From positions 27,901 through 91,900 of the forward strand of contig JBEKDI010000003.1 in assembly GCA_050014435.1 (NCBI GenBank): 64,000 nucleotides of DNA, written 5' to 3'. The DNA is from Verrucomicrobiota bacterium (GTDB lineage: Bacteria > Verrucomicrobiota > Verrucomicrobiia > Limisphaerales > Palsa-1400). The position numbers were made by a program, and so were the translations under genes. The notes below the pieces were generated by a model. That model was not told where the DNA came from and made no database searches. It saw only the letters and a list, made by a program, of their open reading frames with translations. Within the stretch, counting starts at the first letter, position 1. Each line of letters begins with the position of its first letter. Below, piece after piece: positions 11,446 through 39,032 of the stretch.

Positions 11446-11447
11446 AA

Positions 11448-12795: not shown

Positions 12796-13815
12796 TCACT
12801 TTTTTTCGCTTTTTTTCACTTTTCCGACCCAATCCCGGTTGCTCAAGTACCATTGCACCGTCTCGCGAATGCCAGTCTCGAAAGTGTGCGCGGGGGTCCA
12901 GCCCAATTCCCTTTGTATCTTGCCAGCGTCGATGGCGTAGCGGCGGTCATGGCCGGGCCGGTCCTTGACATAACTGATGAGCCGGCGCGAGTTGCCGCCC
13001 AAGCGCGGGGCCAGCTCGTCCATCAGGTCGCAAATCAGCTCCACGATGCGAATATTGGCCCATTCGTTATGGCCGCCGATGTTGTAGGTCTCGCCGTCGC
13101 GTCCCCGGTTCAGCACCTGCCAGAGGGCCTCGGCGTGGTCGCCGACGTAAAGCCAGTCGCGCACGTTCATGCCGTCGCCATAAACGGGGATGGGCTTGCG
13201 CTGGCACACGCTCTCGATGATGACCGGGATGAGCTTCTCCGGAAACTGGCGGGGGCCGTAATTATTGGAACAATTGGTGGTGACCACGGGCAGGCCGTAA
13301 GTGTGATAATACGAGCGCACCAGCAGATCGCTCGACGCCTTGCTCGCGGAATAGGGCGAATTCGGCGCATACGGCGTGCTTTCGGTAAAGAAGCCCGACG
13401 GCCCCAGGCTGCCGTAGACCTCGTCGGTCGAAACGTGATGGAACCGTTTTCCGGCGAAGTTATTGCCCCATGCGCCGCGCACGGCCTCCAATAGATGGAA
13501 CGTGCCGACGATGTTGGTCTGGATAAAATCGCCCGGCCCGGCGATGGACCGGTCCACATGGGATTCCGCGGCCAAATGCAGCACATGAGTGATGGCTTGC
13601 CGTTGCACCACCTCGCAGATGGCGTCCTTGTCGCGCAGGTCCGTCTTCTCGAAGACATATTTCGCATGGCCGGCCAGCCCCTCGAGATTCTCCAGATGCC
13701 CCGCATAGGTCAGGCAATCCACATTGACCAGCCGCTGGATGCCGGCATTGCCAATAATATGATGGATCAGGTTCGACCCGATGAATCCGGCTCCCCCTGT
13801 GACAAGCAAGTTCAT
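12796..13815 (-). CDS. rfbB: dTDP-glucose 4,6-dehydratase
   Basis: [16 protein letters not shown]..., [15 protein letters not shown] (YxxxK), [17 protein letters not shown] 13815 overlaps the upstream stop in an ATGA arrangement. Confidence 0.9.
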
Positions 13816-14762
13816 TTTAAATTCACCCAGTTCTTCAGCGAATCCACCAGGGCATCCTCGACGGGACGGATGGCGACCCCGGCGGACAGCAGTTTGGTTG
13901 CGTCCAGTATGCAATTGGACCGCGGCGTTTTCGCGGCCACCTTGTAAAACTCCGCGTCATCGCTCCAAAACTCGAAGGAGCGCGCCGGACGCAGGATTTT
14001 TTGCATCATCTCCACCACCTGCCGGGTGGTGACGAAGCCGGGATTGGTGACATTGTAGGTCCCGAAGGGGGCCCGCTTCTGCCAGAGATCGAGGCAGGCG
14101 GCCGTGAAATCCCCGCGATGCGACAGGGAGTTGACGTTCTGATAGACTTTGGCGTAGTTGCGCAACTTGCTCAGGTAGTTGCGCGGATTGTCAAATCGAT
14201 CAAAGGGGATGCGCAAGCGCCAGATGTAACCCTGGCCGACGCCGCGCAAGGCCTCCTCGCCCAGCGCCTTGCTGCCGCTGTAAAAGCTGCACGGCGGACT
14301 GCGAAAAGTGAAATTCGGCTCATCCGCCTCGGTGAACCCCCGGAAGGCGGCGCGGTTTTTCTCCAACAAGGCCGGCAGGCCGTTCTTGTTCAAGTCTCTT
14401 TCGATGCGATCCCGTCCGCCCTCGACGACGCGGGCGCCGCTGAAAATGCAGCCGGACGACACATGGCCGTAGGGAATGCCCAGGCTGGCGCAGGCGTGGG
14501 CGGCCGCGGCGGGAAAAAGCGTGTTGCCCTGGAGTGTGTCGGCCCAGTGTTGCTCGCAGGCGTCCACGTTCGGTTTGCCGGTGTAGCCCGCCGCGTTGAT
14601 CAGGAATTCGGGCCGGATCTTTTCGAGGTAAGCGCGCAAGGCCGCGAATTGCCCGTAATCAATCTCCGAACGCAACGGAGCGGCAAATGGAATGCCGCGC
14701 TCCTGCAAAGTCCGGGCAAACTGCCCGCCGACATAACCGGTTCCGCCCAACAGAATAATCAT
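13812..14762 (-). CDS. NRS/ER-like dTDP(UDP)-4-keto-6-deoxyhexose reductase (RmlD superfamily, plant/giant-virus-like subtype)
   Basis: [13 protein letters not shown] Rossmann motif, [28 protein letters not shown] (YxxxK), and NPRNYLSKL...[18 protein letters not shown]...[12 protein letters not shown]. By recall these segments align with Arabidopsis NRS/ER (NPRNFITKI...FTNPGVVSHNEILEMY...PRSNNELDATKL) better than with E. coli RmlD. Confidence 0.7.
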
Positions 14763-14764
14763 AG

Positions 14765-15634
14765 TCAACGACTCGCTTCAGCCAGGACACGATAGAGATA
14801 ATCCCGATATTCGCAATGAGGCATTTGCGCCGCCAGTTTCTCCAGTTGGCTGCGCGTGATGAACTCCCGATGGAAAGCCGCTTCCTCGGGACAGCCGATT
14901 TTGATCCCCTGCCGCTTTTCAATCGTTTGCACGTAAGCGGAGGCCTCGTGCAGGCTGCTGCTGGTGCCGGCGTCCAGCCAGGCGAACCCCCGGCTCAACT
15001 GGAAGACCTGCAACTGCCCGAGGCGCAGATAGGCCACATTCACATCGGTGATTTCCAATTCTCCCCGCGGGGAGGGTTTAAGATTCCGGGTGATGCTCAC
15101 CACCTGGTTGTCATACAAATAAAGCCCCGGCACGGCATGATTGCTGCGCGGGGACTTCGGTTTCTCTTCAATCGAAATGGCCCGGCCCCCGGCGTCGAAT
15201 TCGACCACGCCATAACGTTCCGGGTCGGTCACGCGATAGCCAAAAATGGCCGCGCCGGTCTTGAATCCGGCGAAGGCCCGTTTAAAACCGTCCGCCCCGT
15301 AAAAAACGTTGTCGCCCAAAATGAGCGTCACCGGGTCCGCCCCGATAAAGGATTCGGCGATCAAGAACGCCTGGGCGATGCCGGCGGGCCTGGGCTGTTC
15401 GCGATAATCAATGGCCAGGCCCCAGGGTTTCCCGTCGCCCAGCAATTGCCGGAACCGCGGCAAATCCTGCGGCGTGGAAATCAGGCAGATTTCGCGGACG
15501 CCGTTTTCGATCAACGTCGTCAGCGGATAATAAATCATCGGCTTGTCATAAACCGGCTGCAACTGTTTGCTCGCCACCAGGGTGAGGGGGTACAAACGCG
15601 AACCGGCGCCGCCGGCGAGAATGATGCCTTTCAT
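14765..15634 (-). CDS. rfbA: Glucose-1-phosphate thymidylyltransferase
   Basis: MKGIILAGGAGSRLYPLT..., DKPMIYYPL, LGDNVFYG. The internal ATG 15634 is used because the longer track ORF overlaps the upstream gene. Confidence 0.9.
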   Translation of the reverse strand: MKGIILAGGAGSRLYPLTLVASKQLQPVYDKPMIYYPLTTLIENGVREICLISTPQDLPRFRQLLGDGKPWGLAIDYREQPRPAGIAQAFLIAESFIGADPVTLILGDNVFYGADGFKRAFAGFKTGAAIFGYRVTDPERYGVVEFDAGGRAISIEEKPKSPRSNHAVPGLYLYDNQVVSITRNLKPSPRGELEITDVNVAYLRLGQLQVFQLSRGFAWLDAGTSSSLHEASAYVQTIEKRQGIKIGCPEEAAFHREFITRSQLEKLAAQMPHCEYRDYLYRVLAEASR

Positions 15635-15638
15635 GGGG

Positions 15639-16694
15639 TCAGAGCGGGATTGGGGTTGGGATGGGGAGGCGTTTTTGCATGGCCACGTACCAGGACAGGG
15701 CCTCGTCAAGACCATTTTCGATTTTGTGGGTCGGGGCGTAGCCCAGCAACCGCCTGGCTCTGCTGATGTCAGCCCGCGAATGGCGCACGTCGCCCGGTTG
15801 AAAGTCGCGGTGAACCGGTTTCATCTCCCGCAAGTGCGGGTGGGCGTGCACCAACCGCTCGCGCAACATCTGGAACAGATTGGTGAGAGTTGTTTCTTCG
15901 CCCAGGGCAATGTTGCAGGCGGTGTTCAGCGCCTGCGGATTGGCGGTGGTCGCGGCCAGCAGGTTGGCCTGGACGACGTTGGCCACATAACAAAAATCGC
16001 GGCTGGTTGAGCCGTCGCCATTGATATAAACAGGATCGTTTTGGATCATGGCCGCAATCCACTTCGGAATCACAGCCGCGTACTGACCGTTCGGATCCTG
16101 GCGCGGGCCGAAGACGTTGAAGTAGCGCAAGCCGATGCTGCCCATGCCGTAGCACCGGGCGAAGACGTCGGCGTAGAGTTCATTGACCCGTTTGGAAACC
16201 GCGTAAGGGGAAAGGCAATTACCGATGTTCTCCTCGACCTGCGGCAGGGCGGCGGCATCGCCATAGACCGAACTGCTGGACGCAAAGACAAATCGCTGGA
16301 CGCCTCCCTCCCTCGCCGCCCATAACATGTTCAGAAATCCGGTGACGTTGTTGGCATTGGTTTCGGTTGGACGGGCCACGGAACGCGGCACCGAGCCTAT
16401 GGCGGCTTGGTGCAGGACGTAATGCGCCCCCTTCACGGCATCACGGCAGGTGGCGGCGTCCTGGGTGTCCCCTTTGATCCAGGTAAAATTCTTCCAGCGC
16501 TCCGGTCCGACGGCGGCTTGGACCTGGGCCAGATTGCCGGCGTGGCCGGTGGACAGGTTGTCCAATCCCACCACGCGCTGGTTCAAGCGCAACAAAGCCT
16601 CCAACAAATTCGAGCCGATGAAGCCCGCGACGCCGGTGACTGCCCACACTTTGGGCGACGTCTTCAACTCTGCCTGTGTTTCCTCAAATTTCAT
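15639..16694 (-). CDS. NAD-dependent UDP-HexNAc 4-epimerase (WbpP/TviC-like SDR)
   Basis: [30 protein letters not shown] (YxxxK). The extended-SDR layout resembles WbpP/TviC. Confidence 0.75.
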
Positions 16695-20121: not shown

Positions 20122-20128
20122 GGAATTT

Positions 20129-28394: not shown

Positions 28395-29447
28395 TCAGCT
28401 GCTCCTCATGCGCAGACCGCCGCGAGCCAGATCCGCGCCTTTCATGCAGAGATAACTCAGTGAATTCTCGCAACACTCCAACGGCGCAAGCCGTGTTATA
28501 TCGTCCCCCGAAAACCCCTTCTTGAAATGATAAACACCCGGGTTTCCAACCGGATCAATTCCTCCAAGATCGTAGTATTTGCACCCGTTTTCCTTGAGCC
28601 ATTTGATCATGTCCCACTGCAAAAGATAGGCTCCTTTGCTGTTCAAACCAGCCTCGCTGGTCGCGCCGAGAAGATAGATTCCCATGTTGCCAATGCCCGA
28701 ACAAACGATGCCGCTGACTGGGACGCCCTTGTCCTGGCATATCAGAATTCGCAGCCTTAACCCTTCGGGCAAGTCCGCGCTAATCCGCCCAAATTCCTCC
28801 ACATCCACCGCAGTGTCAAACTTTTTCCGGCTCCGCATGTCCTGGTAAAGTTTAAGAAACATCTGGTAATGTTCAGGCCCGCCGCCCTCCAGAATGGCCA
28901 GGTTGTTTTTCTCGGCGCGATTGAGCTGGTTCCGCCATTTTTGGTCGAGCGCCTTGCGCAACTCCTCCAGCGCGGGCGCAAGGCTCAAGACAATCGTTCT
29001 ATCCGGGCCGGAGGGTCCGGACGCCCCCGTGGCAAATTGGGAAAAGGCCGCCTGAAAAATGTCCGCCCGCGCCGAACCGGCAAAAGCGTTGGGCAGAATG
29101 CGCAAGAAAAGGCGCCGTTTCCGGACATATTCGGCGCGCAGCGCCTCTGCCATGTGACGCAGCGTTCCCAACTCAAGCTCCTGTCCGCGCAACAGGCACA
29201 GCGGCCCCCATCTCATGTACGCGATGCCGCAGTTGAGAAAGCCCGAGCGAATGATCCGAAGCTGCGCCATGCCCGCCACCCCGTCCCCGCGGCGCAAAAT
29301 GAGATGACTCAAATTCTCCCGGCCCCAGCGAACGGCCCCATAGCTCCACGTTTGGTAGAGGTTTGCGTCCTCGAACCGCCCCAAAAGTTCCGACCACTCG
29401 GCAGCCGTGACGGTGTCAATATCGGCCCGGTAAAGTGGGTCAACCAT
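28395..29447 (-). CDS. FemAB-family protein (aminoacyl-tRNA-dependent transferase fold; PEP-CTERM-locus type)
   Basis: GAYLLQWDMIKWLKENGCKYYDLGGI and GVYHFKKGFSG are typical of the FemAB / lipid II glycyltransferase family C-terminus. ATG 29447 is used (the track start is TTG). Confidence 0.7.
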   Translation of the reverse strand: MVDPLYRADIDTVTAAEWSELLGRFEDANLYQTWSYGAVRWGRENLSHLILRRGDGVAGMAQLRIIRSGFLNCGIAYMRWGPLCLLRGQELELGTLRHMAEALRAEYVRKRRLFLRILPNAFAGSARADIFQAAFSQFATGASGPSGPDRTIVLSLAPALEELRKALDQKWRNQLNRAEKNNLAILEGGGPEHYQMFLKLYQDMRSRKKFDTAVDVEEFGRISADLPEGLRLRILICQDKGVPVSGIVCSGIGNMGIYLLGATSEAGLNSKGAYLLQWDMIKWLKENGCKYYDLGGIDPVGNPGVYHFKKGFSGDDITRLAPLECCENSLSYLCMKGADLARGGLRMRSS

Positions 29448-30297
29448 GAATGGAATCTTTCCTTGGAGCAGGGTCCCCAAACCATGAACGAACCTTTCTT
29501 TTCCAAGCGGATGCCCTTCTCACCCATCGATACGCCCCGCATATCTTCAACTTGAACTCGACGTCCCAATCAGTCGGTTGAACGTCCACCCGCCCGATCA
29601 GACCTTCACCCATGGTTGAGAACATCTGTTGTGGAATTGAATCAAAAAAAAATCTGTACCCGGCTTCACTGGCGAGCCGCAATTCCCTTGCGCCGTAGCT
29701 TCCATACGGAAAGCTGAACGCATTAATTTCGCGCCCGAGGATGGCTTCCAGTGATAATTTGGATTTCTGGAGTTCCTGCCTTGCTTCGGCTTCAGGCAGC
29801 AACGCGAGGTCGGCATGCATCACCCCGTGCGATCCGAAACCCACGTTGCCAAATTTGGCAATTCGCTTGAGGTCGTCTGCCGAAGCCACGGCTTCGCCGA
29901 CTTTGTTTTCCCCGCCATAATCATCCCAGGAAGAGTTTCGGCCCAAATAACCGGTGGGCGGGAACAGGGTTACAGGAATATTGCGCTGACACAATTCCGG
30001 CAGTCCGTTGGCCACGAAACTTTGGAATACATCGTCCACTGTGATGGCGACATAACGACGCCCCTTTTCCAGACGCAATTCCTTCCCCGCCGGGATGGGT
30101 TTGGCCAAGCGGAGAAGCGTGTCGAGTTGCCTGCAAAACCGTGATTTTGAATCGCTGAAAATAGAATGGTAATTGATGACGACACAAGCTCCGGCGGACT
30201 GGCGCGTTCCAGACAGCCTCCCAGCCAATCCATCCCACAATGCTACGCCGAGGCTGATTGCCAGTTTAATCAAACGGTCAATCATATCTTGCCACAC
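29440..30297 (-). CDS. Polysaccharide deacetylase (CE4/NodB-like) family protein with N-terminal TM helix
   Basis: YVAITVDDVFQSF (NodB motif 1-like TxDD) and GFGSHGVMH (His motif). The start is GTG 30297 or ATG 30285. Confidence 0.65.
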   Translation of the reverse strand: MWQDMIDRLIKLAISLGVALWDGLAGRLSGTRQSAGACVVINYHSIFSDSKSRFCRQLDTLLRLAKPIPAGKELRLEKGRRYVAITVDDVFQSFVANGLPELCQRNIPVTLFPPTGYLGRNSSWDDYGGENKVGEAVASADDLKRIAKFGNVGFGSHGVMHADLALLPEAEARQELQKSKLSLEAILGREINAFSFPYGSYGARELRLASEAGYRFFFDSIPQQMFSTMGEGLIGRVDVQPTDWDVEFKLKICGAYRWVRRASAWKRKVRSWFGDPAPRKDSIHG

Positions 30298-30333
30298 CCG
30301 GTTTTCTTAACGACCCAAGAAAGGCCGACGCTG

Positions 30334-31788
30334 CTATGCCGGTTTCCATCTGGAAACCCTACTGCTGACCACCTCACACGCTTCAGAGAAGGCAGACAAC
30401 CGGCAGACCCGGCAACCCAGAAAATAGACGATCATGCCGGTTGCGACCTCAGCCGCCAACCGGCTGAAATTTCCACCCCAGGGCGGCAGCCCGCCAGCCA
30501 GCCAAACGCACACTCCCATCAGTGCGGAGATTCCCAGATAAGGCAGCAAATCCAGGATTTGCTCCTCCCAGGAGTAGCCGATCAACCGAATAGAATAATA
30601 GCTGTTAAGATAACAGGAAATGATGGAAACCACGATATCCCCGATAAGCAGTCCTTTGACTCCGTGGCGAAATGACAACGCAACCGCCGCAACCACGAAC
30701 ATCTTTTTGATGATTTCAAGTCGCAAAAACAAATCGGAACGGCCCTGTGCGGCAAGCGCATTCAGATGAATGAGACTTAACGGGTAAAGCGCGCCGCCAA
30801 CACACAACAACTGAATGTAGGGAACACACGCTTCCCATTTCTTTGTCAGCAGTACCAGCACAAGCGGCCGGGCAGTCACGGCCAAACCAATCATCGCGGG
30901 AAAGTTTATCATAACCAGTCCCCGGGCGGCCTTTCTTACGCCGCGCTTTAACACCGTTTTGTCCTGCTGAACGGAGGCGAAAATAGGAAACGAGACCCGG
31001 CCGACGATGCTGCAAAGGTTATCCACCGGCAGTTGCTGCATTTGTTTGGCTCTCGTGAACAAGCCAAGCGCGGCGGGGGTGTAAATCCGGCCGATAACTA
31101 GCGAATAGATCTCCGTGAAAATGTTATTGAGCAGGTTGGATGCAAAAAGTCTCGATCCGTAAGGCAACAATTCCCGCAAAGACGAGAAGCTGAATGCCGC
31201 CGAAGGCCGCCAGTCATGCCACGCCCACAACAAGATCACCCGCAACACATCTCCAATGAGCGCCTGAAACGCGAGGCTCAGCACACCAAAGCCCTGGAGC
31301 GCCATCCCAACCGCGATTCCACCCGATATGACCGTGGAGACGACACTTACTTTTAACTGGGTCTTGAAATCTATTTCCTTGTTCAGAAGCATGGTCTGGA
31401 CAATGCCGAACGAATTGATGACGACATCCAGCGCCATGAGCCGCGCCAGGCTGGTCAGAATGGGTTGACGGTAGAAATTCGCAATCCAAGGAGCCGCAAC
31501 ATACAGCAAACAACCGGCGAACACCCCAAAAGCGATGTTAAAATAAAAAACGGAACATTCATCGCGGTGAGTCGCATTTTGTTTCTGAATCAAGCCTTCG
31601 CCAAACCCGCAATTCACGAATACCTGGGCGACCCCTATGAAAATTCCCAGCATCCCAATCAGGCCGAATTCCGCGGGCACGAGCAGGCGGGCGAGGATCA
31701 CGCCGATCGCAAACCGGATCAGTTGCCCGGAAAGCCGCTCCAGGCCGCTCCAGATCACGGCGTTAACGGCTTTGTGTTTGATGCTCAT
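30334..31788 (-). CDS. Wzx-type MOP-superfamily polysaccharide flippase
   Basis: 484 aa with ~12-14 TM helices. The N-terminus MSIKHKAVNAVIWSGLERLSGQLIRFAIGVILARLL is typical of polysaccharide biosynthesis (PST) flippases. Confidence 0.8.
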   Translation of the reverse strand: MSIKHKAVNAVIWSGLERLSGQLIRFAIGVILARLLVPAEFGLIGMLGIFIGVAQVFVNCGFGEGLIQKQNATHRDECSVFYFNIAFGVFAGCLLYVAAPWIANFYRQPILTSLARLMALDVVINSFGIVQTMLLNKEIDFKTQLKVSVVSTVISGGIAVGMALQGFGVLSLAFQALIGDVLRVILLWAWHDWRPSAAFSFSSLRELLPYGSRLFASNLLNNIFTEIYSLVIGRIYTPAALGLFTRAKQMQQLPVDNLCSIVGRVSFPIFASVQQDKTVLKRGVRKAARGLVMINFPAMIGLAVTARPLVLVLLTKKWEACVPYIQLLCVGGALYPLSLIHLNALAAQGRSDLFLRLEIIKKMFVVAAVALSFRHGVKGLLIGDIVVSIISCYLNSYYSIRLIGYSWEEQILDLLPYLGISALMGVCVWLAGGLPPWGGNFSRLAAEVATGMIVYFLGCRVCRLSAFSEACEVVSSRVSRWKPA

Positions 31789-31848
31789 TACTGATTTCGA
31801 GGGGCGGCATCCATGTCCTGGCCGCTCACTGTGTTGGCATGTTTATTT

Positions 31849-33168
31849 TCAGACATAATCTTCAAAGAGCAAGTCGATCATGGATGGGTCAAGGGTGACA
31901 ATTCCCGTTTTATCATGAACCGCCTTTCTTTCAGCAAAGCTGTCGTCAATAAATATCGCATCTTTTTCTTTGATAAAACCTGCTTTGGATTCTGTTGTCC
32001 CCAAGTGCACGATCTCATCAAAAAGATTATCCAGGCGCCACCGGCGCAATTCGGGTTTCAAATCGCCATCGTGTCTGGTTAGCAGAACCAGCCGGCATCC
32101 GCGATTTAACCCCTGGTAAAGCAATTTTATAAGTTCGACGTTCAATCTTCCGCGAATGACAAGCGTGTCGTCATAATCCACATACAATGTTTGGTAACGG
32201 ATGTTGTGGCGATAGCGGTTTATTAATGCACGGTCGATTTCGACCTGATAACTCCCGGGCAGAATCTGCACAGACAACCGTTCCGCTTCGTACAAGCTCA
32301 ACAGCGGCAGATTTACGCCATGCACCCGACTTAAAGCCGATGTGCCCCCTATGCGGGGGGCGACTTCCAGTACTTTTAATTCGCCATGCCCGTCGCCCTT
32401 GACCTGAAAAAACCACGCGCCGCGCAGCTCAATTACCGTGGAAATCTTTTCCGCATATTCCCCGAACCGTTTGTCATCGACCACCATGGAATCCATGGCA
32501 ATGCCTGAGCGAATTCTCCGCCGTTGCCGCCCGCACGCATATTGCAAACCGCGCTCCCGGTCGGAAAAACAGTCCACCGTGAATTCCGGTCCTTCAAGGT
32601 ATTCAAGGATAATTCGATCGGAATCCTGTGCCAGTAATGCTGCGAGCTCACCGGGGGTTTTTGCCACGGCAGTGCGTTGCGAACCTTGTCCGCGGTCTGG
32701 CTTTAAGAAAACCGGCCACAGCTTGATCTGCTCTGTTCTCTGAAATAACTCTGGAACGGGAACAATACCGGACAATCGCTGCAGCGTCGCGGTTTTTGAT
32801 CGCGTAAGCCGGCATGTTTCCAAGGTAGACGTGATAATTTTTGCCTTTAGTTTGAGGGCGTTTTCCGATAAGGCCAGCAGTGCATCGTCATGCGCCGGGA
32901 AAATGTGGGTGATTTGATTTTCCTCCACCAAGGCAGACAGTTCATCCAACCATTCGGCCTGGCTGATTTCTGGAATTATGAAATGACGGGCAAATACGTA
33001 CGGTGCGTGATTTGAAACACTGCTGCCGGCCGAAAAAAGCATAATCTCCTTGCAGCACCCCAACGCTTGACGCAATTCCAATGCAAGTTCGGTGGCTCCA
33101 GGGAATACAAGAACCCGCCATCGGATACCTTTGCCCGGCTGGTTCGAAGTTTCGGAAGCTTCTGTCAT
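31849..33168 (-). CDS. ATP-grasp ligase fused to a C-terminal HAD-like phosphatase domain
   Basis: aa ~15-320 are ATP-grasp-like (PVFLKPDRGQGSQ, ILEYLEGPEFTVDC, LEVAPRIGGT). aa 327-439 carry HAD motifs I DYDDT (DxDxT), II VLLTRH and IV IFIDDS. Confidence 0.7.
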   Translation of the reverse strand: MTEASETSNQPGKGIRWRVLVFPGATELALELRQALGCCKEIMLFSAGSSVSNHAPYVFARHFIIPEISQAEWLDELSALVEENQITHIFPAHDDALLALSENALKLKAKIITSTLETCRLTRSKTATLQRLSGIVPVPELFQRTEQIKLWPVFLKPDRGQGSQRTAVAKTPGELAALLAQDSDRIILEYLEGPEFTVDCFSDRERGLQYACGRQRRRIRSGIAMDSMVVDDKRFGEYAEKISTVIELRGAWFFQVKGDGHGELKVLEVAPRIGGTSALSRVHGVNLPLLSLYEAERLSVQILPGSYQVEIDRALINRYRHNIRYQTLYVDYDDTLVIRGRLNVELIKLLYQGLNRGCRLVLLTRHDGDLKPELRRWRLDNLFDEIVHLGTTESKAGFIKEKDAIFIDDSFAERKAVHDKTGIVTLDPSMIDLLFEDYV

Positions 33169-33173
33169 AGTAC

Positions 33174-34379
33174 TTACAAAGCTACCAGGTGGGCCGGCCA
33201 GCCGTCATCGGTGGAGTGCGGCGTCTTCTTTGATGCGGCTCCCGGACGGTTTAGGCAAAGATGCGCAATTATGTCGCAAATTCGATCTGCGTCTTCCGAC
33301 CCGAGAGAGTCGTAAATGGGCAAGGTCAGAATGCGCCCGGCGATTCTTCGCGCATTCGTCAGCAGATCCTTGATCGAGAGGCCGCGGTAACAGGCGAATT
33401 CAGGCACCAATGGATAAAAGTAGCGGCGGGTGAATACATTATATCGTTGCAGTGCGGAGTAAAGCTGATTGCGATCCATGCCAAATTGTTCCGCGTCTAT
33501 CTCCACTGGAAAATAAGAATAATTGAATTCTACGTCGGCGGAAGGCAGTCGAGGAATGTGAATACCTGGAATCTCCTTGAGCCGTGTGCGGTAGAGCGCG
33601 TCGATCTGTTGCCGCCGCGAAATGATTCCGCCCATGTGCCCCAGGATTTGTGAACCCATTAACGCCTGGAACTCGTTCATTTTCGCATTCGTGCCGGGCA
33701 TAACCACTTCCGTCTCGCCATCGAACCCGAAGTTTTTCAGATAATCGAATACCTTCATCCGTCCCGGGTCGGAAAACATCAACATGCCACCCTCGATCGA
33801 GTGAAACAGTTTGGTGGCGTGGAAACTGAACATGCTCAAGTCCCCGTAGTGGCCGATGGAACGCCCGTCCACCGTCACGCCGAACGCGTGGGCGGCATCA
33901 TAAAGCAGGAGCAGCTTGTGACGCCGCGCTATCTCCGCCAGTTCTTTCAGTCGGCAGGGGTAACCATAGACATGCACGGCCAGAATCGCGGTTGTCCAGG
34001 GAGTAATCGCTTCTTCGACCCGCGCCGGATCGAGGGTGTAATGTTCCGGCTCAATATCCACAAACACGGGGCGAATTTTGTTCCAATACAGCGCGTGGGT
34101 GGTGGCGACGAAGGTGAACGGCGTGGTGACGACCTCGCCCGACAACTGCAGTCCTTGCAGCGCGATTTGCAGCGCCAGGGTTCCGTTGTTGAAAAGGCAA
34201 AGATTGTCCGTCTTGAAGTAGCGGCACAGCTCCTTTTGGAATCGTTGCAACGCCGGCCCATTGTTGGTCAGCCACTTGTTGCTCCAAATCTCCTGAAGCC
34301 CACTGGTGAAATCGGCAAGCGGCGGGAGAAATGGCCGCGTGACATAAATCGGTTTTTCAAATGGCTCAGGCATAATCAT
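33174..34379 (-). CDS. DegT-family PLP-dependent aminotransferase
   Basis: FNNGTLAL, FVATTHAL, YDAAHAFG, SFHATKLF (PLP lysine). 401 aa. Confidence 0.85.
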   Translation of the reverse strand: MIMPEPFEKPIYVTRPFLPPLADFTSGLQEIWSNKWLTNNGPALQRFQKELCRYFKTDNLCLFNNGTLALQIALQGLQLSGEVVTTPFTFVATTHALYWNKIRPVFVDIEPEHYTLDPARVEEAITPWTTAILAVHVYGYPCRLKELAEIARRHKLLLLYDAAHAFGVTVDGRSIGHYGDLSMFSFHATKLFHSIEGGMLMFSDPGRMKVFDYLKNFGFDGETEVVMPGTNAKMNEFQALMGSQILGHMGGIISRRQQIDALYRTRLKEIPGIHIPRLPSADVEFNYSYFPVEIDAEQFGMDRNQLYSALQRYNVFTRRYFYPLVPEFACYRGLSIKDLLTNARRIAGRILTLPIYDSLGSEDADRICDIIAHLCLNRPGAASKKTPHSTDDGWPAHLVAL

Positions 34380-34388
34380 AACATATCT

Positions 34389-35510
34389 TCAGAACTTCCT
34401 TGCGTTCCAGCGGTTTCGCATCCCTTGTGCGTGGGGAAGGAGCAGAGATTCGAGGGCACGCCACCGGAGTTGCCCGCGATCGGGCGCGGATGACCGGTTG
34501 CGGGCGATTTCGGACAGGTTTGTCCTGAAACATCTCAAAGCCGGACCATATTTGCCAGTCTTGCTGAAGGCTCCCGTCAACATGGCAAGCGTCCGAGAGA
34601 CGCCAATGGCACAAGCTGACTGCAGGCTGGGCGGAAGGATTGACTCAAGGCATTTCCACAGCTCCACGTTCCATTGCAGCCGGGCTTCACCCGAATTTGG
34701 GCTGAAAACGCCGCCGGCATGGATTCGGTACATACTCCAAATCCGAGGCATGGTCCGCGCTGTTCCCTGGAGCATGGCGCAGACTATGATCGGGTAATCT
34801 CCAAAACGGGACGACCTGAACTTTTCCCATGGCATTGGTTTTCCCCGGCGCAGAAGCCAAGTGGAGGTATGGATGTTTCCAACGTCTCTTCTCAATATGG
34901 CGTCGATCGTGAACGATTCAACCGGCTGGGTGGGAGTGACACTGATGATCCAGGGTTTTTCCTCCTGCAGACAGGCAGCGTAGTGACACGAGGCAGCAAG
35001 ACCTGAATCAGCCTCAAGTTGATTGACCTGCGTTTGCAATTTATGGGGGTTGAGCCAGTAATCATCCCCCTCCAAAAGGGCGATATACTTTCCCCGACAT
35101 GCATCAAACGTCGAAGCCGTATTGAACATGTAAGGGGCTGCGAAGTTGTTGCGGGCGGGATTCGAACGATTCCTCAGGAAAAGACGGATTTTGTCCGGAT
35201 GCTTCCGGGCATATTCAATGCATATCTCGCGCGTGCCATCGGTCGACCCGTCTTCGCCTATACAAATCTCGTATGGGAAATCAACATTCTGCATCAGCAC
35301 ACTGTCAATCGCCTCCTTGATGAATGAAGCATGTTGATAGGTGATCATAAAAACGCTCACCAAAGGTTCCGCTGGAAGCTTGGAATGGTCACTGTATTCA
35401 ACATCGCCGCCCGATGCCGCGGAGAGAGGCATGCTTTCAAGCTGGTTCATGGAATTCGCCACGGGCATGTCCTGCGGATCGGCGGCAACGGGGGGCCAAG
35501 CCACAATCAT
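34389..35510 (-). CDS. Family 2 glycosyltransferase
   Basis: VSVFMITYQHASFIKEAIDSVLMQ, ICIGEDGSTDGT, LEGDDYW (DxD). Confidence 0.85.
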   Translation of the reverse strand: MIVAWPPVAADPQDMPVANSMNQLESMPLSAASGGDVEYSDHSKLPAEPLVSVFMITYQHASFIKEAIDSVLMQNVDFPYEICIGEDGSTDGTREICIEYARKHPDKIRLFLRNRSNPARNNFAAPYMFNTASTFDACRGKYIALLEGDDYWLNPHKLQTQVNQLEADSGLAASCHYAACLQEEKPWIISVTPTQPVESFTIDAILRRDVGNIHTSTWLLRRGKPMPWEKFRSSRFGDYPIIVCAMLQGTARTMPRIWSMYRIHAGGVFSPNSGEARLQWNVELWKCLESILPPSLQSACAIGVSRTLAMLTGAFSKTGKYGPALRCFRTNLSEIARNRSSAPDRGQLRWRALESLLLPHAQGMRNRWNARKF

Positions 35511-35513
35511 CTT

Positions 35514-36176
35514 TCAGCGCTGAATACTTCCTGGTTCTAAAGAAACCCGTTCCCAGGCGCCAGTCTCCCGATTATACCGTTTGACCACTCGCGCGGGCGC
35601 GCCAACCGCCACGGAAAAGTCAGGAATGGACGAATTAACAACAGAATTGGCTCCAATAACACAGTGTTCCCCGATGGTTGCGCCCGGCAGCACGACGACG
35701 TTCTGTCCCAGCCAGGAGTTCCGGCCAATGGAGACGGGTGCGATGCCTTTGATGCCTTGATGCATAATCGGTAACTCAATGTTTTCAAAGGCATGGGCGT
35801 GGTCCGAGATATAAACATTGCGGGCCAAAAGGACATGGTCACCGATCGCCACTTTGCAAGCCGCCGAAATAGATGCGCCCATGCCGATGCCGGCATAGGA
35901 CCCGATAACGAGCTTGGTCTCGTTATTGTGTTTGCCATCAGGAACGGTTTGAATCCAGCAATCCCGCTCAATCTGAGCGCCTTGGCCGAGGACGATTTCG
36001 TTTAGACCGTGGAACCGAAATGGGGGCGAGATTCTTGATCCCAAACCCGCCTCCTTGAATTGTGTTGAGAGCAGGAGAGTGAAAAGCCGAGTTCGGATTT
36101 TCGAACACAAATACAATACCCCTTCTATCGCTCCGATGGTCATAAGAAGGTTTTTAATCAGCTCTCTGGTTTCCAT
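35514..36176 (-). CDS. Hexapeptide-repeat (LbH) O-/N-acetyltransferase
   Basis: Left-handed beta-helix repeats: IGDHVLLARNVYISD, IGRNSWLGQNVVVLPGATIGEHCVIGANSVVNSSIPDFSVAVGAPARVV. Confidence 0.8.
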   Translation of the reverse strand: METRELIKNLLMTIGAIEGVLYLCSKIRTRLFTLLLSTQFKEAGLGSRISPPFRFHGLNEIVLGQGAQIERDCWIQTVPDGKHNNETKLVIGSYAGIGMGASISAACKVAIGDHVLLARNVYISDHAHAFENIELPIMHQGIKGIAPVSIGRNSWLGQNVVVLPGATIGEHCVIGANSVVNSSIPDFSVAVGAPARVVKRYNRETGAWERVSLEPGSIQR

Positions 36177-36239
36177 CCAAATTCGAGCCTCATTACCTCG
36201 GCTGGCACTCGAACGAAAACAGACGTTTTTTTCCGGCAG

Positions 36240-38669
36240 CTAAGGTCCTGCGCCAACCACATGGAGGTTCAGGGGCGCCGCCAGAATGGTTGCCGCGACG
36301 TCATCCGGGCCGTTTGAGGCCAGGATTGAAATTTCGGATCCAGACAAAACCCGATTGAAAACTCTAAAATCCTCAACGCAGCCGTTCATGCCGAGAAAAG
36401 CGCCGCCCCGATTGCCAATAGTCAAATATGATATATTGACATTGGCAAGAACTCCTGCAGTATTCGTGCCGCCATTCAAGTAAAGTTGATAATTCGTTCC
36501 CATCGATTTGCTGACGGCAATAAAATACCATGCATAGGCGCCTAAAGCTGAAGAGCCGCTTAAAAGCGTTGACCCATCGTAAAATCCCCATGATGACGGA
36601 CCGACCAGAATGCCAGTGCCCGACGAAATTGTGGCTGCATAATTGGCAGCACCGGGAAGAGAATTATTCCAAACCCAAATGGTCATCGTCCAGTCGCCGC
36701 TGTAAGTGATGGGAGATGAAGCAATTCCATCCGCGCTTCCAGAAGCCCCGTCATTACTCGGGAAAAAGACTGCCTTGGTTCCGGCCATACCATTTGTCCA
36801 TCCGGCATTTCCTTGTAATGTTCCGTTGTAGCCGTTGCCGCTGGAATCCGTTGCAACGGTTCCGCTGGTTTGATCCAATTTGTACTGGACGAGCAACCCG
36901 TTCGTAATGTCACTGCCGGCGCCACCGGCAACGAAATTGGTAATGCCTCCACCACTGGGCACAATGATAGGCGCACTGACAGGTCCACCGGCCGGTCCAC
37001 TGCTGGGGATGGTATTGGTGCCATTTGTCGTGATTTGATACGCCCCAATCGTCCAGTTGCCCGCGGCCGGGCGAGGGTTGCCCGCGTAATCATCAGTAAT
37101 GCCCCAAGCCGTCAGGTTCGTGCCTTGACCGACGGCGACGGTGTCAATCGAGAGCGGCATAAAGCCTGGGCTAAGTAAAACACTCCCTGTAGGATTTTTA
37201 TTCCAAAACGGGGCCGTCGGCCAAAAGTTGCTTGCGCCTGTCGCCGAAGGAATAGCCCCTGTGGAGGAATAAAGAGGGTTGAAGTTTGGATCGTGAACAA
37301 ACAGTGCAAAGCCGTTGTTCTGAACCATGCCAGTCGTCTGCGAGTTGTAAACGTTATAGGCTGCGACGTCTGACAAATAGGTAAAGGCACATCCCGCTGC
37401 TCGGGCATTGTTCGTCCAATAATTGGTTGGGAATGGAAACGCCGCCGCTTGCAAACCGCAACTTGAACAGATAATGTTGTTAAACGCATAGTTGCTTGCG
37501 CCGGACAGATAGAGAAACGAAGGCCCGCCTCCATAAGTGCCGTTGTTTTGCCACGAAACTATAGTGTTGTTGGCCACCAGCATGTCCATGCCGCAGAAGG
37601 CCTCTCCCGAAACGCCCAATGGATAGGCTGTTGTCTCGATGTTGTTGTAGATTCGCACATGTTGGGGAAATCCATTTTGAAACGACAACAAACTGGAACC
37701 TCCAGACGTGGTTTGAGGATGAAATCCCACATTAAAAAAATTATAGGCGATTACAATGTTGGACGGGGCATAATTTACCAAGTCATCCGCTGCCAAGTTA
37801 AACATGATAATCCCGTTGCGATGAAAACCCAGGTCGAGACTTGGGGCTGTTTCATACATGTCACCACCTTGAAGGATATTGTGGGTAATAAAAACGCCGT
37901 AAAAGGCGGCGTTGGTAACGCCGGTTGCAAACTCAATGCCCCAATTGTAATTACTGAGGGTGCAGGCGGTTATTATAAAATTAGAACTGCCCTCCGCTTG
38001 AAAAGTGCCCACAATCGCATTCTGGCTGTTGACGACCGTGCAATTGGAAATTGTCCAGCAATTTGGCGAACCACCTTCACTGTCAATAATACCGATACCG
38101 CAGGAGTTGCCATTGGGGCCTTGGGGTGGTTCCGTATTTGTTTGACGATTATAAAGGTTGCTAATTGTTACATTTTGAATAGTAACATATTTGGTAGGCA
38201 ATGCTGATGATATTCCAGAAAGACCGGTGTGGCCGTAATCGCATGTTCCGCCGTTTGCAGGCACAGTGCCGTTATCGGTCAATTGTAAAAGGCCGTTTAC
38301 GCCGCCGTCCACCACTAAATTACTCACCAGGTTGATGTTAATCCATGCGGAATTATTTGGTAAAGTTGGGGCGCTGAACATGGCATTTGATTCAAAATAG
38401 ATCGTAACTGGATTGCCAACGGCGCCGCCAAGCACACCGCAAATGTTTAAGGTGTTGGTCAGCGTTCCCAGCAAATGCACCGTTGTTCCCGGACCCACAT
38501 GATTGGCCCCTGCCCCCCAATTGCCAGAGGCATTGAGCCACGCCAACGAATGGGCATCTGCCGCATCCAGTCCCGTATCTTGACCTTGGGCGTTTTGCGC
38601 AACATAAATGCTCTGGGCCTGCGTGAGGCAAGCGAAGAGAAAAAAAACAAGCGCTGCAATTACTTTCAT
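36240..38669 (-). CDS. Secreted right-handed beta-helix protein with C-terminal LamG/concanavalin-like domain
   Basis: Signal peptide MKVIAALVFFLFACLTQAQS. The N/G/T-rich body has repeated I.NN / N.I motifs (ISNCTVVNSQNAIVG, ITHNILQGG, IYNNIETT, VANNTIVS). The C-terminal ~200 aa (DSSGNGYNGTLQGNAGWTNG...FRVFNRVLSGSEI) match the LamG pattern. Confidence 0.65.
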   Translation of the reverse strand: MKVIAALVFFLFACLTQAQSIYVAQNAQGQDTGLDAADAHSLAWLNASGNWGAGANHVGPGTTVHLLGTLTNTLNICGVLGGAVGNPVTIYFESNAMFSAPTLPNNSAWININLVSNLVVDGGVNGLLQLTDNGTVPANGGTCDYGHTGLSGISSALPTKYVTIQNVTISNLYNRQTNTEPPQGPNGNSCGIGIIDSEGGSPNCWTISNCTVVNSQNAIVGTFQAEGSSNFIITACTLSNYNWGIEFATGVTNAAFYGVFITHNILQGGDMYETAPSLDLGFHRNGIIMFNLAADDLVNYAPSNIVIAYNFFNVGFHPQTTSGGSSLLSFQNGFPQHVRIYNNIETTAYPLGVSGEAFCGMDMLVANNTIVSWQNNGTYGGGPSFLYLSGASNYAFNNIICSSCGLQAAAFPFPTNYWTNNARAAGCAFTYLSDVAAYNVYNSQTTGMVQNNGFALFVHDPNFNPLYSSTGAIPSATGASNFWPTAPFWNKNPTGSVLLSPGFMPLSIDTVAVGQGTNLTAWGITDDYAGNPRPAAGNWTIGAYQITTNGTNTIPSSGPAGGPVSAPIIVPSGGGITNFVAGGAGSDITNGLLVQYKLDQTSGTVATDSSGNGYNGTLQGNAGWTNGMAGTKAVFFPSNDGASGSADGIASSPITYSGDWTMTIWVWNNSLPGAANYAATISSGTGILVGPSSWGFYDGSTLLSGSSALGAYAWYFIAVSKSMGTNYQLYLNGGTNTAGVLANVNISYLTIGNRGGAFLGMNGCVEDFRVFNRVLSGSEISILASNGPDDVAATILAAPLNLHVVGAGP

Positions 38670-38753
38670 ATTAATAGTTTAACAATTAGAGTCGGCCATT
38701 ATTGCCACGGAGGTCAAACCTCCTCAGGCGTGGCAAGTCCCTCAGCGATGCAA

Positions 38754-38769
38754 AGCAATATTCATGCCT
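38754..38769 (-). promoter_or_regulatory. Candidate sigma54 (-24/-12) promoter upstream of the beta-helix/LamG gene
   Basis: The minus strand reads AGGCATGAATATTGCT, i.e. GGCAT-N5-TTGC with exact consensus spacing. It lies ~85 nt upstream of ATG 38669 inside a 363-bp intergenic gap. Confidence 0.3.
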
Positions 38770-39032
38770 TATTTGCCCGCAATGGCGATAACGATCCGGT
38801 TTTCTCCAAATCGGATTTTGGTCGCATGCCGAGGCTGCTTTCCGTGGCCCGCAAACTTTGCCCCCCCCTTACATACTTCGCTTGAATGCATCACCCTGAT
38901 CAAAGATGCGTGAATTTAGTCATGGGATCGCGATTCCGCTCACCAGTTTTTGGCAATCCTTTGGCAAAAATCGTGCATAGTAAATGCCGTCTTAAAGTGA
39001 GACACGACCAAATGGGCTTGTCTGGATTCTTT

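What the first reader, a model, noticed from the sequence alone, without database searches (positions are those of the whole stretch)
31849..34379. ATP-grasp ligase fused to a HAD phosphatase, paired with a PLP aminotransferase: candidate module for amide-linked decoration of a uronic acid
ORF 31849-33168 joins an ATP-grasp domain (about 32209-33126) to a C-terminal domain with complete HAD motifs (about 31852-32190). These are DYDDT (DxDxT), VLLTRH and IFIDDS. It is separated by 5 nt from a DegT-family aminotransferase (33174-34379). The locus makes at least one uronic acid, through a UDP-HexNAc 6-dehydrogenase and the WbpB/D/E block. In the Campylobacter jejuni HS:2 capsule, an ATP-grasp amidoligase, a HAD phosphatase and PLP enzymes together attach serinol or ethanolamine (as phosphates, later dephosphorylated) to glucuronate. 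A fused ligase-phosphatase here could perform an analogous ligate-then-dephosphorylate reaction. I am not aware of this fusion being characterised.
Basis: inference. Interest (0 to 1): 0.6.

Follow-up and report, generated by a model that had tools for sequence, protein, structure and literature searches.

The report
Fused ligase-phosphatase for amino-sugar acylation
A real and very widespread but uncharacterised two-domain enzyme (amide-forming ATP-grasp ligase fused to a small HAD phosphatase) that travels with a DesI-like sugar aminotransferase in surface-polysaccharide and flagellin-glycosylation loci, and most likely puts an acyl or aminoacyl group on a 4-amino-4,6-dideoxy sugar rather than decorating a uronic acid as first proposed.

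Summary
ORF 31849-33168 (-) is an ATP-grasp ligase fused to a capless HAD-fold domain whose four catalytic motifs are conserved, and it sits 5 nt after a DegT aminotransferase. The HAD part escapes Pfam, NCBIfam and PDB sequence searches. It shows up only through motif conservation and fold.

The fusion is a large family: about 919 clusters at 50% identity, in many bacterial phyla and in archaea. Its conserved partner is a DesI-like aminotransferase (near it in 70 of 80 loci; 61 of 65 partners DesI-like). A small methyltransferase (30 of 80 loci, sometimes fused) and a GT2 (28 of 80) often accompany it. About 14 of the 80 loci are flagellin glycosylation islands.

The C. jejuni HS:2 analogy fails on homology. 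All three C. jejuni components belong to other families, and uronic-acid dehydrogenases are almost never nearby (1 of 80).

One part of the idea survives. ATP-grasp enzymes of this clade pair with HAD hydrolases repeatedly, so a ligate-then-dephosphorylate step is plausible.

Best reading (about 0.5): DegT makes an NDP-4-amino-4,6-dideoxyhexose, the ligase N-acylates it with a phosphorylated acid, and the HAD domain removes the phosphate. The substrates are inferred, not shown.

The parts
31849..33168 (-). Bifunctional ATP-grasp::HAD protein, 439 aa (stop codon included)
   Evidence: ORF. Pfam ATP-grasp hits above cutoff. AlphaFold pLDDT 91.9. 100% identical protein in a Verrucomicrobiota MAG, with more than 2000 homologs.
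32209..33126 (-). ATP-grasp ligase domain (about residues 15-320)
   Evidence: PF15632 and PF02655. Foldseek 2pn1 4e-18. Family profile against PDB: 2pn1 2e-22, L-amino-acid ligase 3vot 1e-4, Ddl 0.007. Invariant K156, E195, E268 and R272.
31852..32190 (-). Capless (C0) HAD-fold phosphatase-like domain (about residues 327-439)
   Evidence: All four HAD motifs are conserved. Domain model pLDDT 92.1. Foldseek top hits are all C0 HAD phosphatases. No sequence-profile hit; weak HAD Pfam hits in some members.
33174..34379 (-). DesI-like DegT-family PLP aminotransferase, 5 nt upstream of the fusion gene
   Evidence: PF01041 3.6e-92. Best NCBIfam is TIGR04427 DesI at 306 bits, below the 650 cutoff. 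Best PDB hit is DesI 2po3 at 9e-71, 36% identity over 376 columns, with the SFHATK lysine conserved. Orthologous partner near the fusion gene in 70 of 80 loci.
34389..35510 (-). GT2 glycosyltransferase, ortholog of the GT2 that accompanies the cassette in 28 of 80 loci
   Evidence: PF00535. 40.6% identity, 1.8e-46 to the cluster-2 representative. Cluster statistics.
35514..36176 (-). Hexapeptide-repeat acyltransferase in the same gene string (not a conserved partner elsewhere)
   Evidence: PF00132. tblastn finds it in 0-1 of 80 loci depending on threshold.
30334..31788 (-). Wzx/MOP flippase directly downstream
   Evidence: PF13440 2.8e-91; NCBIfam Wzx models.
28395..29480 (-). FemAB-like (aminoacyl-transferase family) gene three genes downstream; possible contributor to an aminoacyl or peptidyl substituent
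   Evidence: PF02388 and PF13480. The gene set FemAB-like + ATP-grasp + DegT parallels the C. difficile type B flagellin locus. Not conserved near the cassette in other loci.
12796..13914 (-). RmlB, dTDP-glucose 4,6-dehydratase (likely supplier of the DegT substrate)
   Evidence: TIGR01181 471 bits, above the 365 cutoff.
14765..15715 (-). RmlA, glucose-1-phosphate thymidylyltransferase
   Evidence: TIGR01207 420 bits, above the 360 cutoff. No RmlC-like gene detected in the window.

Best explanation
The pair DegT (33174-34379) plus ATP-grasp::HAD (31849-33168), together with the adjacent GT2, is a portable sugar-tailoring cassette. Its product would be an N-acylated 4-amino-4,6-dideoxyhexose for a surface glycan.

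Proposed steps:
1. RmlA and RmlB supply dTDP-4-keto-6-deoxyglucose.
2. The DesI-like DegT converts it to the NDP-4-amino sugar.
3. The ATP-grasp domain activates the carboxylate of a small phosphorylated acid as an acyl-phosphate. Candidates are a phospho-hydroxy-acid such as 3-phosphoglycerate, or an O-phospho-amino acid. The sugar's 4-amine attacks to form the amide.
4. The fused capless HAD domain hydrolyses the remaining phosphate ester.
5. In many genomes an adjacent or fused methyltransferase then methylates the product, and the GT2 (or a TPR-GT41 enzyme in flagellar islands) transfers the finished sugar.

Shown: the domain identities, the conservation of catalytic residues, and the gene linkage and fusions. 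Inferred: the substrates, the order of steps, and the identity of the acid.
For: Partner identity:
- DegT is near the fusion gene in 70 of 80 loci from many phyla and archaea, mostly adjacent and co-oriented.
- 61 of 65 partners are DesI-like, and one sub-clade scores 356-412 bits against DesI itself.
- The window DegT is 36% identical to DesI with almost no gaps and keeps the catalytic lysine.
- The window has RmlA and RmlB above NCBIfam cutoffs and no RmlC-like gene.

Ligase:
- The nearest characterised relatives by profile are small-molecule carboxylate-amine ligases: L-amino-acid ligase 1e-4 and Ddl 0.007.

Phosphatase coupling:
- The HAD catalytic motifs are invariant or >=90% conserved, and the HAD fold is confirmed.
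- The HAD-like domain is almost always found at residues ~300-430 of ~430-aa proteins.
- HAD-less relatives in Roseibium and Palleronia are followed by a separate HAD gene. In Palleronia this sits in a cluster with an NDP-sugar 4,6-dehydratase and a DegT.

Fusions:
- ATP-grasp::HAD::methyltransferase, P0337, 5e-56 to the adjacent methyltransferases.
- ATP-grasp::HAD plus a second ATP-grasp, P0199.
- WbqC-like plus ATP-grasp::HAD, P0008.

Context:
- About 14 of 80 loci carry flagellin genes, with the fixed block [TPR-GT41][DegT][ATP-grasp::HAD][MT][rSAM][MT24]. FliD is adjacent in L044, and C. metallidurans CH34 has the same island.
- Other loci are O-polysaccharide clusters with Wzm/Wzt, for example Geomonas with Wzm-Wzt-[ATP-grasp::HAD-MT-DegT-GT2].

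Precedent:
- In C. difficile RT027, an ATP-grasp gene beside a DegT-family gene and a FemAB-like gene is required for the terminal peptidylamido-Fuc3N of the flagellin glycan.
Against: - No substrate was tested, and no member of this fused family has a published function in the literature held.
- The DegT falls below the DesI equivalog cutoff (306 vs 650 bits). DegT enzymes are known that act on non-nucleotide substrates, so the amine could be something else.
- RmlA or a true RmlB lies within 10 kb in only about 8 of 80 loci.
- The window also has a hexapeptide acyltransferase next to the GT2. It could N-acetylate the amino sugar directly and leave no free amine.
- Why a phosphorylated acyl donor would be used is a rationalisation, not an observation.
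- Homology between this ATP-grasp and C. difficile CDR20291_0245 could not be tested.
Confidence: 0.5

Rival explanations
1. First reader's model. This is a functional analogue of the C. jejuni HS:2 system. The aminotransferase makes an amine-phosphate such as serinol-P. The ATP-grasp ligates it to the C6 carboxylate of a uronic acid in the nascent glycan or nucleotide sugar. The fused HAD then removes the phosphate.
For: The ligate-then-dephosphorylate logic is experimentally established in C. jejuni with Cj1438C and Cj1435. The window encodes a uronic-acid pathway. The ATP-grasp/HAD pairing is recurrent.
Against: All three C. jejuni components belong to different families, with no detectable similarity. 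The partner aminotransferase is DesI-like. An NDP-sugar 6-dehydrogenase is near the cassette in 1 of 80 loci, whereas the C. jejuni locus L085 has Ugd beside the amidoligase. In the flagellar islands no uronic-acid dehydrogenase was detected.
Confidence: 0.13
2. The ATP-grasp ligates an ordinary, unphosphorylated amino acid to the DegT-made amino sugar, giving a peptidylamido-sugar as in C. difficile type B. The HAD domain serves another step. It might generate the acid from a phosphorylated precursor before ligation, or dephosphorylate a sugar-phosphate or lipid-linked intermediate.
For: The nearest characterised ATP-grasp relatives are amino-acid ligases. Supporting fusions and neighbours include a second ATP-grasp (P0199), a possible FemAB/GNAT-like domain (P0198, weak, E 0.056) and a FemAB-like gene in the window. 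There is also the C. difficile type B precedent.
Against: This does not explain why the phosphatase is physically fused to, or translationally coupled with, the ligase in nearly every member. Capless HADs usually need a partner domain to shape the substrate site, which suggests the two domains share a substrate.
Confidence: 0.22
3. Carboxyphosphate chemistry. This is the 'carbamoyl-phosphate-synthase-like' annotation taken literally. The ATP-grasp would carboxylate or carbamoylate an amine rather than ligate an organic acid.
For: Source annotations and the NCBIfam PRK12767 models call it CPS-like. After 2pn1, the next Foldseek hits are biotin carboxylases.
Against: All PRK12767 hits are far below cutoff, at 101 bits against 390. 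The structural hits share only 13-18% identity and the generic fold. No biotin-carrier, amidotransferase or carbamoyltransferase partner is conserved. A phosphatase has no obvious role.
Confidence: 0.05
4. The C-terminal domain is a degenerate, non-catalytic HAD-like module with a structural or regulatory role, and the protein is simply an ATP-grasp ligase.
For: No Pfam, NCBIfam or PDB sequence model recognises it. Foldseek E-values are modest, around 2e-4.
Against: The nucleophile Asp, the Asp+2, the motif II Thr, the motif III Lys and the motif IV DD are invariant or >=90% conserved over 55 sequences averaging 62% column identity. That pattern is typical of an active site. Independent pairing of related ligases with bona fide annotated HAD hydrolases also argues against it.
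Confidence: 0.07

Closest known systems
C. difficile RT027/RT023 type B flagellin-glycan locus (CDR20291_0244 FemAB-like, _0245 ATP-grasp 'CPS-like', _0246, _0247 FdtB-like DegT)
   Same: An ATP-grasp carboxylate-amine ligase sits next to a DegT-family sugar aminotransferase in a glycan locus. Genetically, the ATP-grasp is needed for a terminal amino sugar (Fuc3N) that carries an amide-linked peptidyl cap. The window also has a FemAB-like gene nearby. Related loci are flagellin glycosylation islands.
   Different: No HAD domain is reported there. The DegT there is FdtB-like (3-amino) rather than DesI-like (4-amino). Sequence homology of the two ATP-grasps was not tested. The C. difficile enzymology is itself unresolved.
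C. jejuni HS:2 glucuronamide system (Cj1438C amidoligase, Cj1435 HAD phosphatase, Cj1436/Cj1437 PLP enzymes)
   Same: The logic is the same: an ATP-grasp forms an amide with a phosphorylated partner, and a HAD phosphatase then removes the phosphate. This is demonstrated biochemically.
   Different: Every component belongs to a different family: TupA-like vs ATPgrasp_Ter/ATP-grasp_3 type, capped HAD-IB vs capless C0 HAD, and class I/II vs DegT aminotransferase. The proteins are separate there and fused here. The C. jejuni system acts on a uronic-acid carboxylate and has Ugd next door, whereas this family does not.
2pn1 / PRK12767 'carbamoyl-phosphate-synthase-like' ATP-grasp proteins
   Same: This is the closest relative by sequence (2e-22 with the family profile) and by fold (4e-18, TMt 0.74).
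   Different: 2pn1 is a structural-genomics protein of unknown function with no HAD domain. The window protein is far below all the PRK12767 equivalog cutoffs.
Modified-viosamine and anthrose-type terminal sugars (P. syringae vio island, B. anthracis ant operon)
   Same: A 4-aminotransferase, an N-acylation step, a methyltransferase and a dedicated glycosyltransferase together make a terminal N-acyl-4-amino-4,6-dideoxy-O-methyl-hexose on flagellin or a surface glycoprotein (for the P. syringae paper; the anthrose comparison is from my own knowledge).
   Different: Those systems acylate with CoA- or ACP-activated acids through acyltransferases. Here an ATP-grasp::HAD would use a free, probably phosphorylated, acid.

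Membership tests
ATP-grasp superfamily | Sequence match to ATP-grasp profile models above curated cutoffs | tested here: met
   PF15632 65.3 bits (cutoff 29.1) and PF02655 34.8 bits (cutoff 23.2).
ATP-grasp superfamily | Three-subdomain ATP-grasp fold | tested here: met
   AlphaFold pLDDT 91.9. 597 PDB matches with E<=1e-3, led by 2pn1, biotin carboxylases and an L-amino-acid ligase.
ATP-grasp superfamily | ATP-dependent carboxylate-amine ligation through an acyl-phosphate | not testable with these tools
   Only the conservation of K156, E195, E268 and R272 was seen.
HAD superfamily (phosphatase) | Motifs I (DxDxT), II (S/T), III (K) and IV (DD) in order | tested here: met
   D331, D333, D334, K395, D408 and S410 are invariant. 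T335, T364 and D409 are >=90% conserved in 55 homologs.
HAD superfamily (phosphatase) | Rossmannoid fold with a flap after strand 1 | tested here: met
   DSSP topology. Foldseek top hits are all C0 HAD phosphatases, 2e-4 to 1e-3, TM 0.60-0.67.
HAD superfamily (phosphatase) | Match to a curated HAD sequence model | tested here: not met
   No Pfam, NCBIfam or PDB sequence hit. Only sub-threshold hits (E about 0.02-0.03) to Hydrolase_6, Acid_phosphat_B and Hydrolase_3 in 5 of 24 members.
TupA-like amidoligases (Cj1438C type) | Match to PF14305 or homology to Cj1438C | tested here: not met
   Cj1438C hits PF14305 at 1.3e-36 and the window protein does not. hhalign of the family profile against Cj1438C gives probability 0.1%.
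Cj1435-type HAD-IB phosphatase | Match to PF12710 or homology to Cj1435 | tested here: not met
   Cj1435 hits PF12710 at 4.9e-19. hhalign of the C-terminal profile against Cj1435 gives probability 0.5%.
Cj1436/Cj1437-type PLP enzymes | Class I/II aminotransferase (PF00155), homologous to the C. jejuni enzymes | tested here: not met
   The C. jejuni genes carry PF00155. BLASTP of the window DegT against them finds nothing below E=1.
DegT/DnrJ/EryC1/StrS aminotransferases, DesI-like branch | PF01041 match and the PLP-binding lysine | tested here: met
   309.8 bits. SFHATK aligns with the same motif in DesI.
DegT/DnrJ/EryC1/StrS aminotransferases, DesI-like branch | Equivalog-level match to DesI (TIGR04427) | tested here: not met
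   306.7 bits against a cutoff of 650. DesI is still the best family and the best PDB hit, at 9e-71 and 36% identity.
DegT/DnrJ/EryC1/StrS aminotransferases, DesI-like branch | Activity on dTDP-4-keto-6-deoxyglucose | not testable with these tools
   Supported indirectly by RmlA and RmlB in the window.
C. difficile type B peptidylamido-sugar system | ATP-grasp homologous to CDR20291_0245 | not tested
   No sequence of CDR20291_0245 was available. Only the gene content is comparable.

The most novel reading that the evidence does not exclude
A previously unrecognised, very widespread bifunctional enzyme class that performs 'ligate, then dephosphorylate' (and, in fused or adjacent form, then methylate) on NDP-4-amino-4,6-dideoxyhexoses. 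It would use an abundant phosphorylated central metabolite, such as 3-phosphoglycerate or an O-phospho-amino acid, as the acyl donor. It would thereby create a new family of N-acyl caps on flagellin glycans and O-polysaccharides across bacteria and archaea.
Probability: 0.3. Interest if true: 0.72.

Novelty: new variant of a known kind. Interest (0 to 1): 0.55.

Why it matters
- **Glycan prediction:** Amide-linked non-sugar substituents on bacterial surface glycans shape antigenicity, phage and immune recognition, and flagellar function. The enzymes that install them are mostly unknown.
- **Scale:** This cassette is found in hundreds of species-level genomes, from Enterobacteriaceae and Pseudomonas to CPR bacteria and methanogens. 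Assigning its chemistry would annotate a large block of 'ATP-grasp domain-containing protein' entries and would predict a new sugar modification in many O-antigens and flagellins.
- **Enzymology:** It would give a second, independent example of the ligate-then-dephosphorylate strategy so far demonstrated only in C. jejuni, here compressed into one polypeptide.
- **Tractability:** Cupriavidus metallidurans CH34, Geomonas paludis and Pseudomonas silvicola carry the cassette and are culturable.

Tried and rejected
1. **Orthology with the C. jejuni HS:2 trio.** I obtained the Cj1438C and Cj1435 sequences from a paper supplement and the Cj1436/Cj1437-like genes from fetched C. jejuni contigs. No homology was found for any component.

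2. **C. difficile type A system (CD0241-0244).** I recalled it as containing an ATP-grasp. The literature shows CD0242 is a nucleotidyltransferase, so it is not a relative.

3. **Archaeal AglU / threonine-amide lead.** The literature search gave nothing usable.

4. **WbqC.** One homolog (P0008) is fused to a WbqC-like domain and one locus (L080) has a WbqC-like gene next door. WbqC is uncharacterised in the literature held and rare near the cassette, at about 2 of 80 loci.

5. **E. coli O-antigen route to a known structure.** No blastn match in 5,426 E. coli genomes.

6. **Sequence-profile detection of the HAD domain.** It failed against Pfam, NCBIfam and PDB.

7. **Stand-alone HADs next to HAD-less relatives.** They are not homologous to the fused domain beyond motif I.

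8. **Identity of the P0198 C-terminal domain.** Only a weak, in-register match to the window FemAB-like protein (E 0.056) and no PDB hit.

9. **Original 2021-22 C. jejuni papers.** Not held.

10. **Promoter and terminator scan of the gene string.** Matches are at chance level.


Full report
**1. Observation**

They are separated by 5 nt, reading TAA-gtact-ATG.

The N-terminal two thirds of the 439-aa protein is an ATP-grasp domain:
- Pfam PF15632 and PF02655 both score above their cutoffs.
- The AlphaFold model has pLDDT 91.9.
- The best structural match is the uncharacterised 2pn1 (4e-18), followed by generic ATP-grasp enzymes.

The C-terminal ~113 residues are not recognised by Pfam, NCBIfam or PDB sequence searches. 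The HAD claim therefore had to be tested in other ways:
- In an alignment of 55 full-length homologs (50-80% identity), the proposed catalytic residues are invariant or nearly so: D331, D333, D334 and T335 (motif I), T364 (II), K395 (III), and D408, D409 and S410 (IV).
- A separate high-confidence model of the domain (pLDDT 92.1) finds only capless HAD phosphatases at the top of a PDB fold search: KDN-9-P phosphatase, MDP-1, T4 PNKP phosphatase and YrbI.
- The only recurrent sub-threshold Pfam hits among family members are HAD families.

The DegT assignment is unambiguous (PF01041, 3.6e-92).

**2. The fusion is a family, not a curiosity**

- The protein is 100% identical to one from a Verrucomicrobiota MAG and has more than 2,000 homologs, nearly all ~430 aa long.
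- A scan of one genome per species found at least 578 relatives. They come from Verrucomicrobiota, Planctomycetota, Acidobacteriota, Cyanobacteria, Proteobacteria (including Citrobacter, Enterobacter, Phytobacter, Pseudomonas, Caballeronia and Polynucleobacter), Actinomycetota, CPR bacteria, and archaea such as Methanobacterium and Methanosarcina.
- An exhaustive profile search with the C-terminal domain alone finds 919 clusters at 50% identity. In essentially every full-length hit the domain sits at residues ~300-430 of a ~430-aa protein.

**3. Conserved partners**

An unbiased clustering of all ORFs within 6 kb of the gene in 80 loci gave these recurrent neighbours:

| Neighbour | Loci (of 80) | Note |
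|---|---|---|
| DegT aminotransferase | 63 | 70 by tblastn; mostly adjacent and co-oriented |
| SAM methyltransferases (two families, 16 + 14) | 30 | mostly directly downstream |
| GT2 glycosyltransferase | 28 | the window's 34389-35510 is its ortholog |
| Wzt ABC-transporter ATPase | 20 | |
| Wzm ABC-transporter permease | 13 | |
| Wzx flippase | 12 | |

In Geomonas paludis the block reads Wzm-Wzt-[ATP-grasp::HAD]-[MT]-[DegT]-[GT2].

The partner aminotransferase is consistently DesI-like:
- The window enzyme's best PDB hit is DesI (9e-71). It is 36% identical over 376 columns and keeps the catalytic SFHATK.
- 61 of 65 partner genes match DesI better than they match the window's other two DegT paralogs. 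One sub-clade reaches 356-412 bits against DesI.

**4. An unexpected context**

- tblastn with flagellin termini found flagellin genes within 10 kb in about 14 of the 80 loci.
- Those loci share a fixed island: [TPR-GT41 glycosyltransferase][DegT][ATP-grasp::HAD][MT][radical-SAM/SPASM][TylF-like MT].
- FliD lies beside the island in Caballeronia.
- Cupriavidus metallidurans CH34 has the same island on its second replicon.
- TPR-GT enzymes such as FlmG are established flagellin glycosyltransferases.

The cassette therefore serves both polysaccharide and flagellin glycans.

**5.

The C. jejuni HS:2 system does work by ligate-then-dephosphorylate. I retrieved the actual sequences: Cj1438C and Cj1435 from a supplement, and the adjacent aminotransferases from C. 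jejuni contigs.

| Component | C. jejuni | Result against the window family |
|---|---|---|
| Amidoligase Cj1438C | PF14305, TupA-like | hhalign probability 0.1% |
| Phosphatase Cj1435 | PF12710, capped HAD-IB | hhalign probability 0.5% |
| Aminotransferases Cj1436/Cj1437 | PF00155, class I/II | no BLAST similarity to the window DegT |

The genomic context also differs:
- An NDP-sugar 6-dehydrogenase is within 10 kb of the cassette in only 1 of 80 loci, and in none of the 51 loci longer than 18 kb.
- The C. jejuni locus L085 has Ugd next to the amidoligase.
- In the flagellar islands no uronic-acid dehydrogenase was detected.

The window does encode a uronic-acid pathway. It equally encodes RmlA and RmlB, with no RmlC-like gene detected. 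That is the route to the DesI substrate.

**6.

A phosphatase step appears to be intrinsic to this ligase chemistry:
- The fusion is near-universal within the family.
- More distant HAD-less ATP-grasp relatives on Roseibium and Palleronia plasmids are immediately followed by a separate annotated HAD hydrolase gene, with overlapping stop and start codons in Palleronia. That Palleronia cluster also contains an NDP-sugar 4,6-dehydratase and a DegT.
- Those HADs belong to a different, capped subfamily, so the pairing arose more than once.

**7. Further linkage from fusions**

- P0337 is ATP-grasp::HAD::methyltransferase. Its C-terminus is 42-45% identical to the adjacent small methyltransferases, E about 5e-56.
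- P0199 adds a second ATP-grasp of the Palleronia type, 1.7e-37.
- P0008 adds an N-terminal WbqC-like domain.
- P0198 adds a ~300-aa domain with only a weak, in-register resemblance to the window's FemAB-like protein.
- By profile, the nearest characterised ATP-grasp relatives are small-molecule ligases: L-amino-acid ligase 1e-4 and Ddl 0.007.

**8. Best explanation**

Together these points favour a cassette that builds an N-acylated 4-amino-4,6-dideoxyhexose:
1. DegT makes the amine.
2. The ATP-grasp activates a small acid and forms the amide.
3. The HAD domain removes a phosphate carried by that acid.
4. A methyltransferase often follows.
5. A dedicated GT2 or GT41 transfers the sugar.

The identity of the acid is open. 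A phospho-hydroxy-acid such as 3-phosphoglycerate, or an O-phospho-amino acid, would explain the need for a phosphatase. Either would also expose a group for the methyltransferase. This is inference.

The closest genetic precedent is the C. difficile type B flagellin locus. There, an ATP-grasp next to a DegT-family aminotransferase and a FemAB-like gene is required for a terminal peptidylamido-Fuc3N. Homology to that ATP-grasp could not be tested.

I put about 0.5 on the general model. The variant in which the acid is unphosphorylated and the HAD acts elsewhere gets about 0.22. Small weights go to carboxylation chemistry and to an inactive HAD-like domain.

**9. Novelty and interest**

Amide-forming ATP-grasp ligases in glycan tailoring are known, and so is the ligate-then-dephosphorylate strategy. 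This fused family, with its tight linkage to a DesI-like aminotransferase and its presence in flagellin glycosylation islands, appears undescribed in the literature I could search. Surveys of enterobacterial flagellin glycosylation islands list GT41, DegT and methyltransferases but not this gene.

I rate it a new variant of a known kind. It is of moderate-to-good interest because it is so widespread and is directly testable in culturable hosts.

Noticed in passing
window 10426-11526 (-) and 25769-26488 (-): An XrtC-type exosortase (TIGR04151, 238 bits, below the 300 cutoff) and a protein ending in a VPDSG-CTERM sorting signal. The whole 64-kb region looks like an exosortase-linked exopolysaccharide locus.
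   Followed up: no
window 17384-19312 (-) and 19309-20223 (-): A CysN/CysC fusion and a CysD-like PAPS-reductase-family gene sit inside the glycan locus. This suggests a local PAPS supply and a sulfated polysaccharide. I found no sulfotransferase.
   Followed up: no
window 28395-29480 (-) and 55202-56332 (-): There are two FemAB-like genes in the locus. One lies three genes downstream of the cassette. The same family sits beside the ATP-grasp and DegT genes in the C. difficile type B flagellin locus.
   Followed up: partly
window 36240-38669 (-): An 809-aa protein whose only recognisable domain is a C-terminal LamG/concanavalin-like domain heads the same tightly packed gene string (hexapeptide acyltransferase, GT2, DegT, ATP-grasp::HAD).
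   Followed up: no
window 30000-40000: GC content drops to 0.50-0.53 around the cassette, against 0.58-0.60 in the flanks. This is typical of a horizontally exchanged variable glycan region.
   Followed up: no
P0008 (691 aa); L080 11327-12007: A WbqC-like domain (PF08889, function unknown, named after the E. coli O121 O-antigen cluster) is fused to the N-terminus of one family member. It is also encoded directly downstream in one locus. This may be a lead to the function of WbqC.
   Followed up: partly
L041, L048, L057, L058, L060 (about 12.1-14.3 kb in the 21-kb loci L041, L057, L058; 5896-7035 in L048, 12097-13155 in L060); L086 10168-11226: Flagellar islands carry a radical-SAM/SPASM enzyme (five loci) and a TylF-like methyltransferase (three of them: L041, L057, L058) right after the cassette. 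The C. metallidurans CH34 island instead has a PhyH-type dioxygenase and an unknown protein shared with L080. These imply further, unknown modifications of the sugar.
   Followed up: no
L062 11253-12452; L067 11257-12462; L069 11275-12474: In the enterobacterial loci a soluble sulfatase/alkaline-phosphatase-superfamily protein is encoded directly downstream of ATP-grasp::HAD, overlapping its stop codon.
   Followed up: no
L087 8851-10602; L088 7952-10547: Roseibium and Palleronia plasmids carry a split version (an ATP-grasp followed by a separate capped HAD) in polysaccharide clusters with sulfotransferases. In Palleronia the pair is preceded by a formyltransferase-family gene.
   Followed up: partly
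window 13812-14768 (-): The ORF between RmlB and RmlA matches RmlD only weakly and only over its first ~110 residues (62 bits against a cutoff of 224). It may be a divergent reductase or a mis-called or degraded gene.
   Followed up: no
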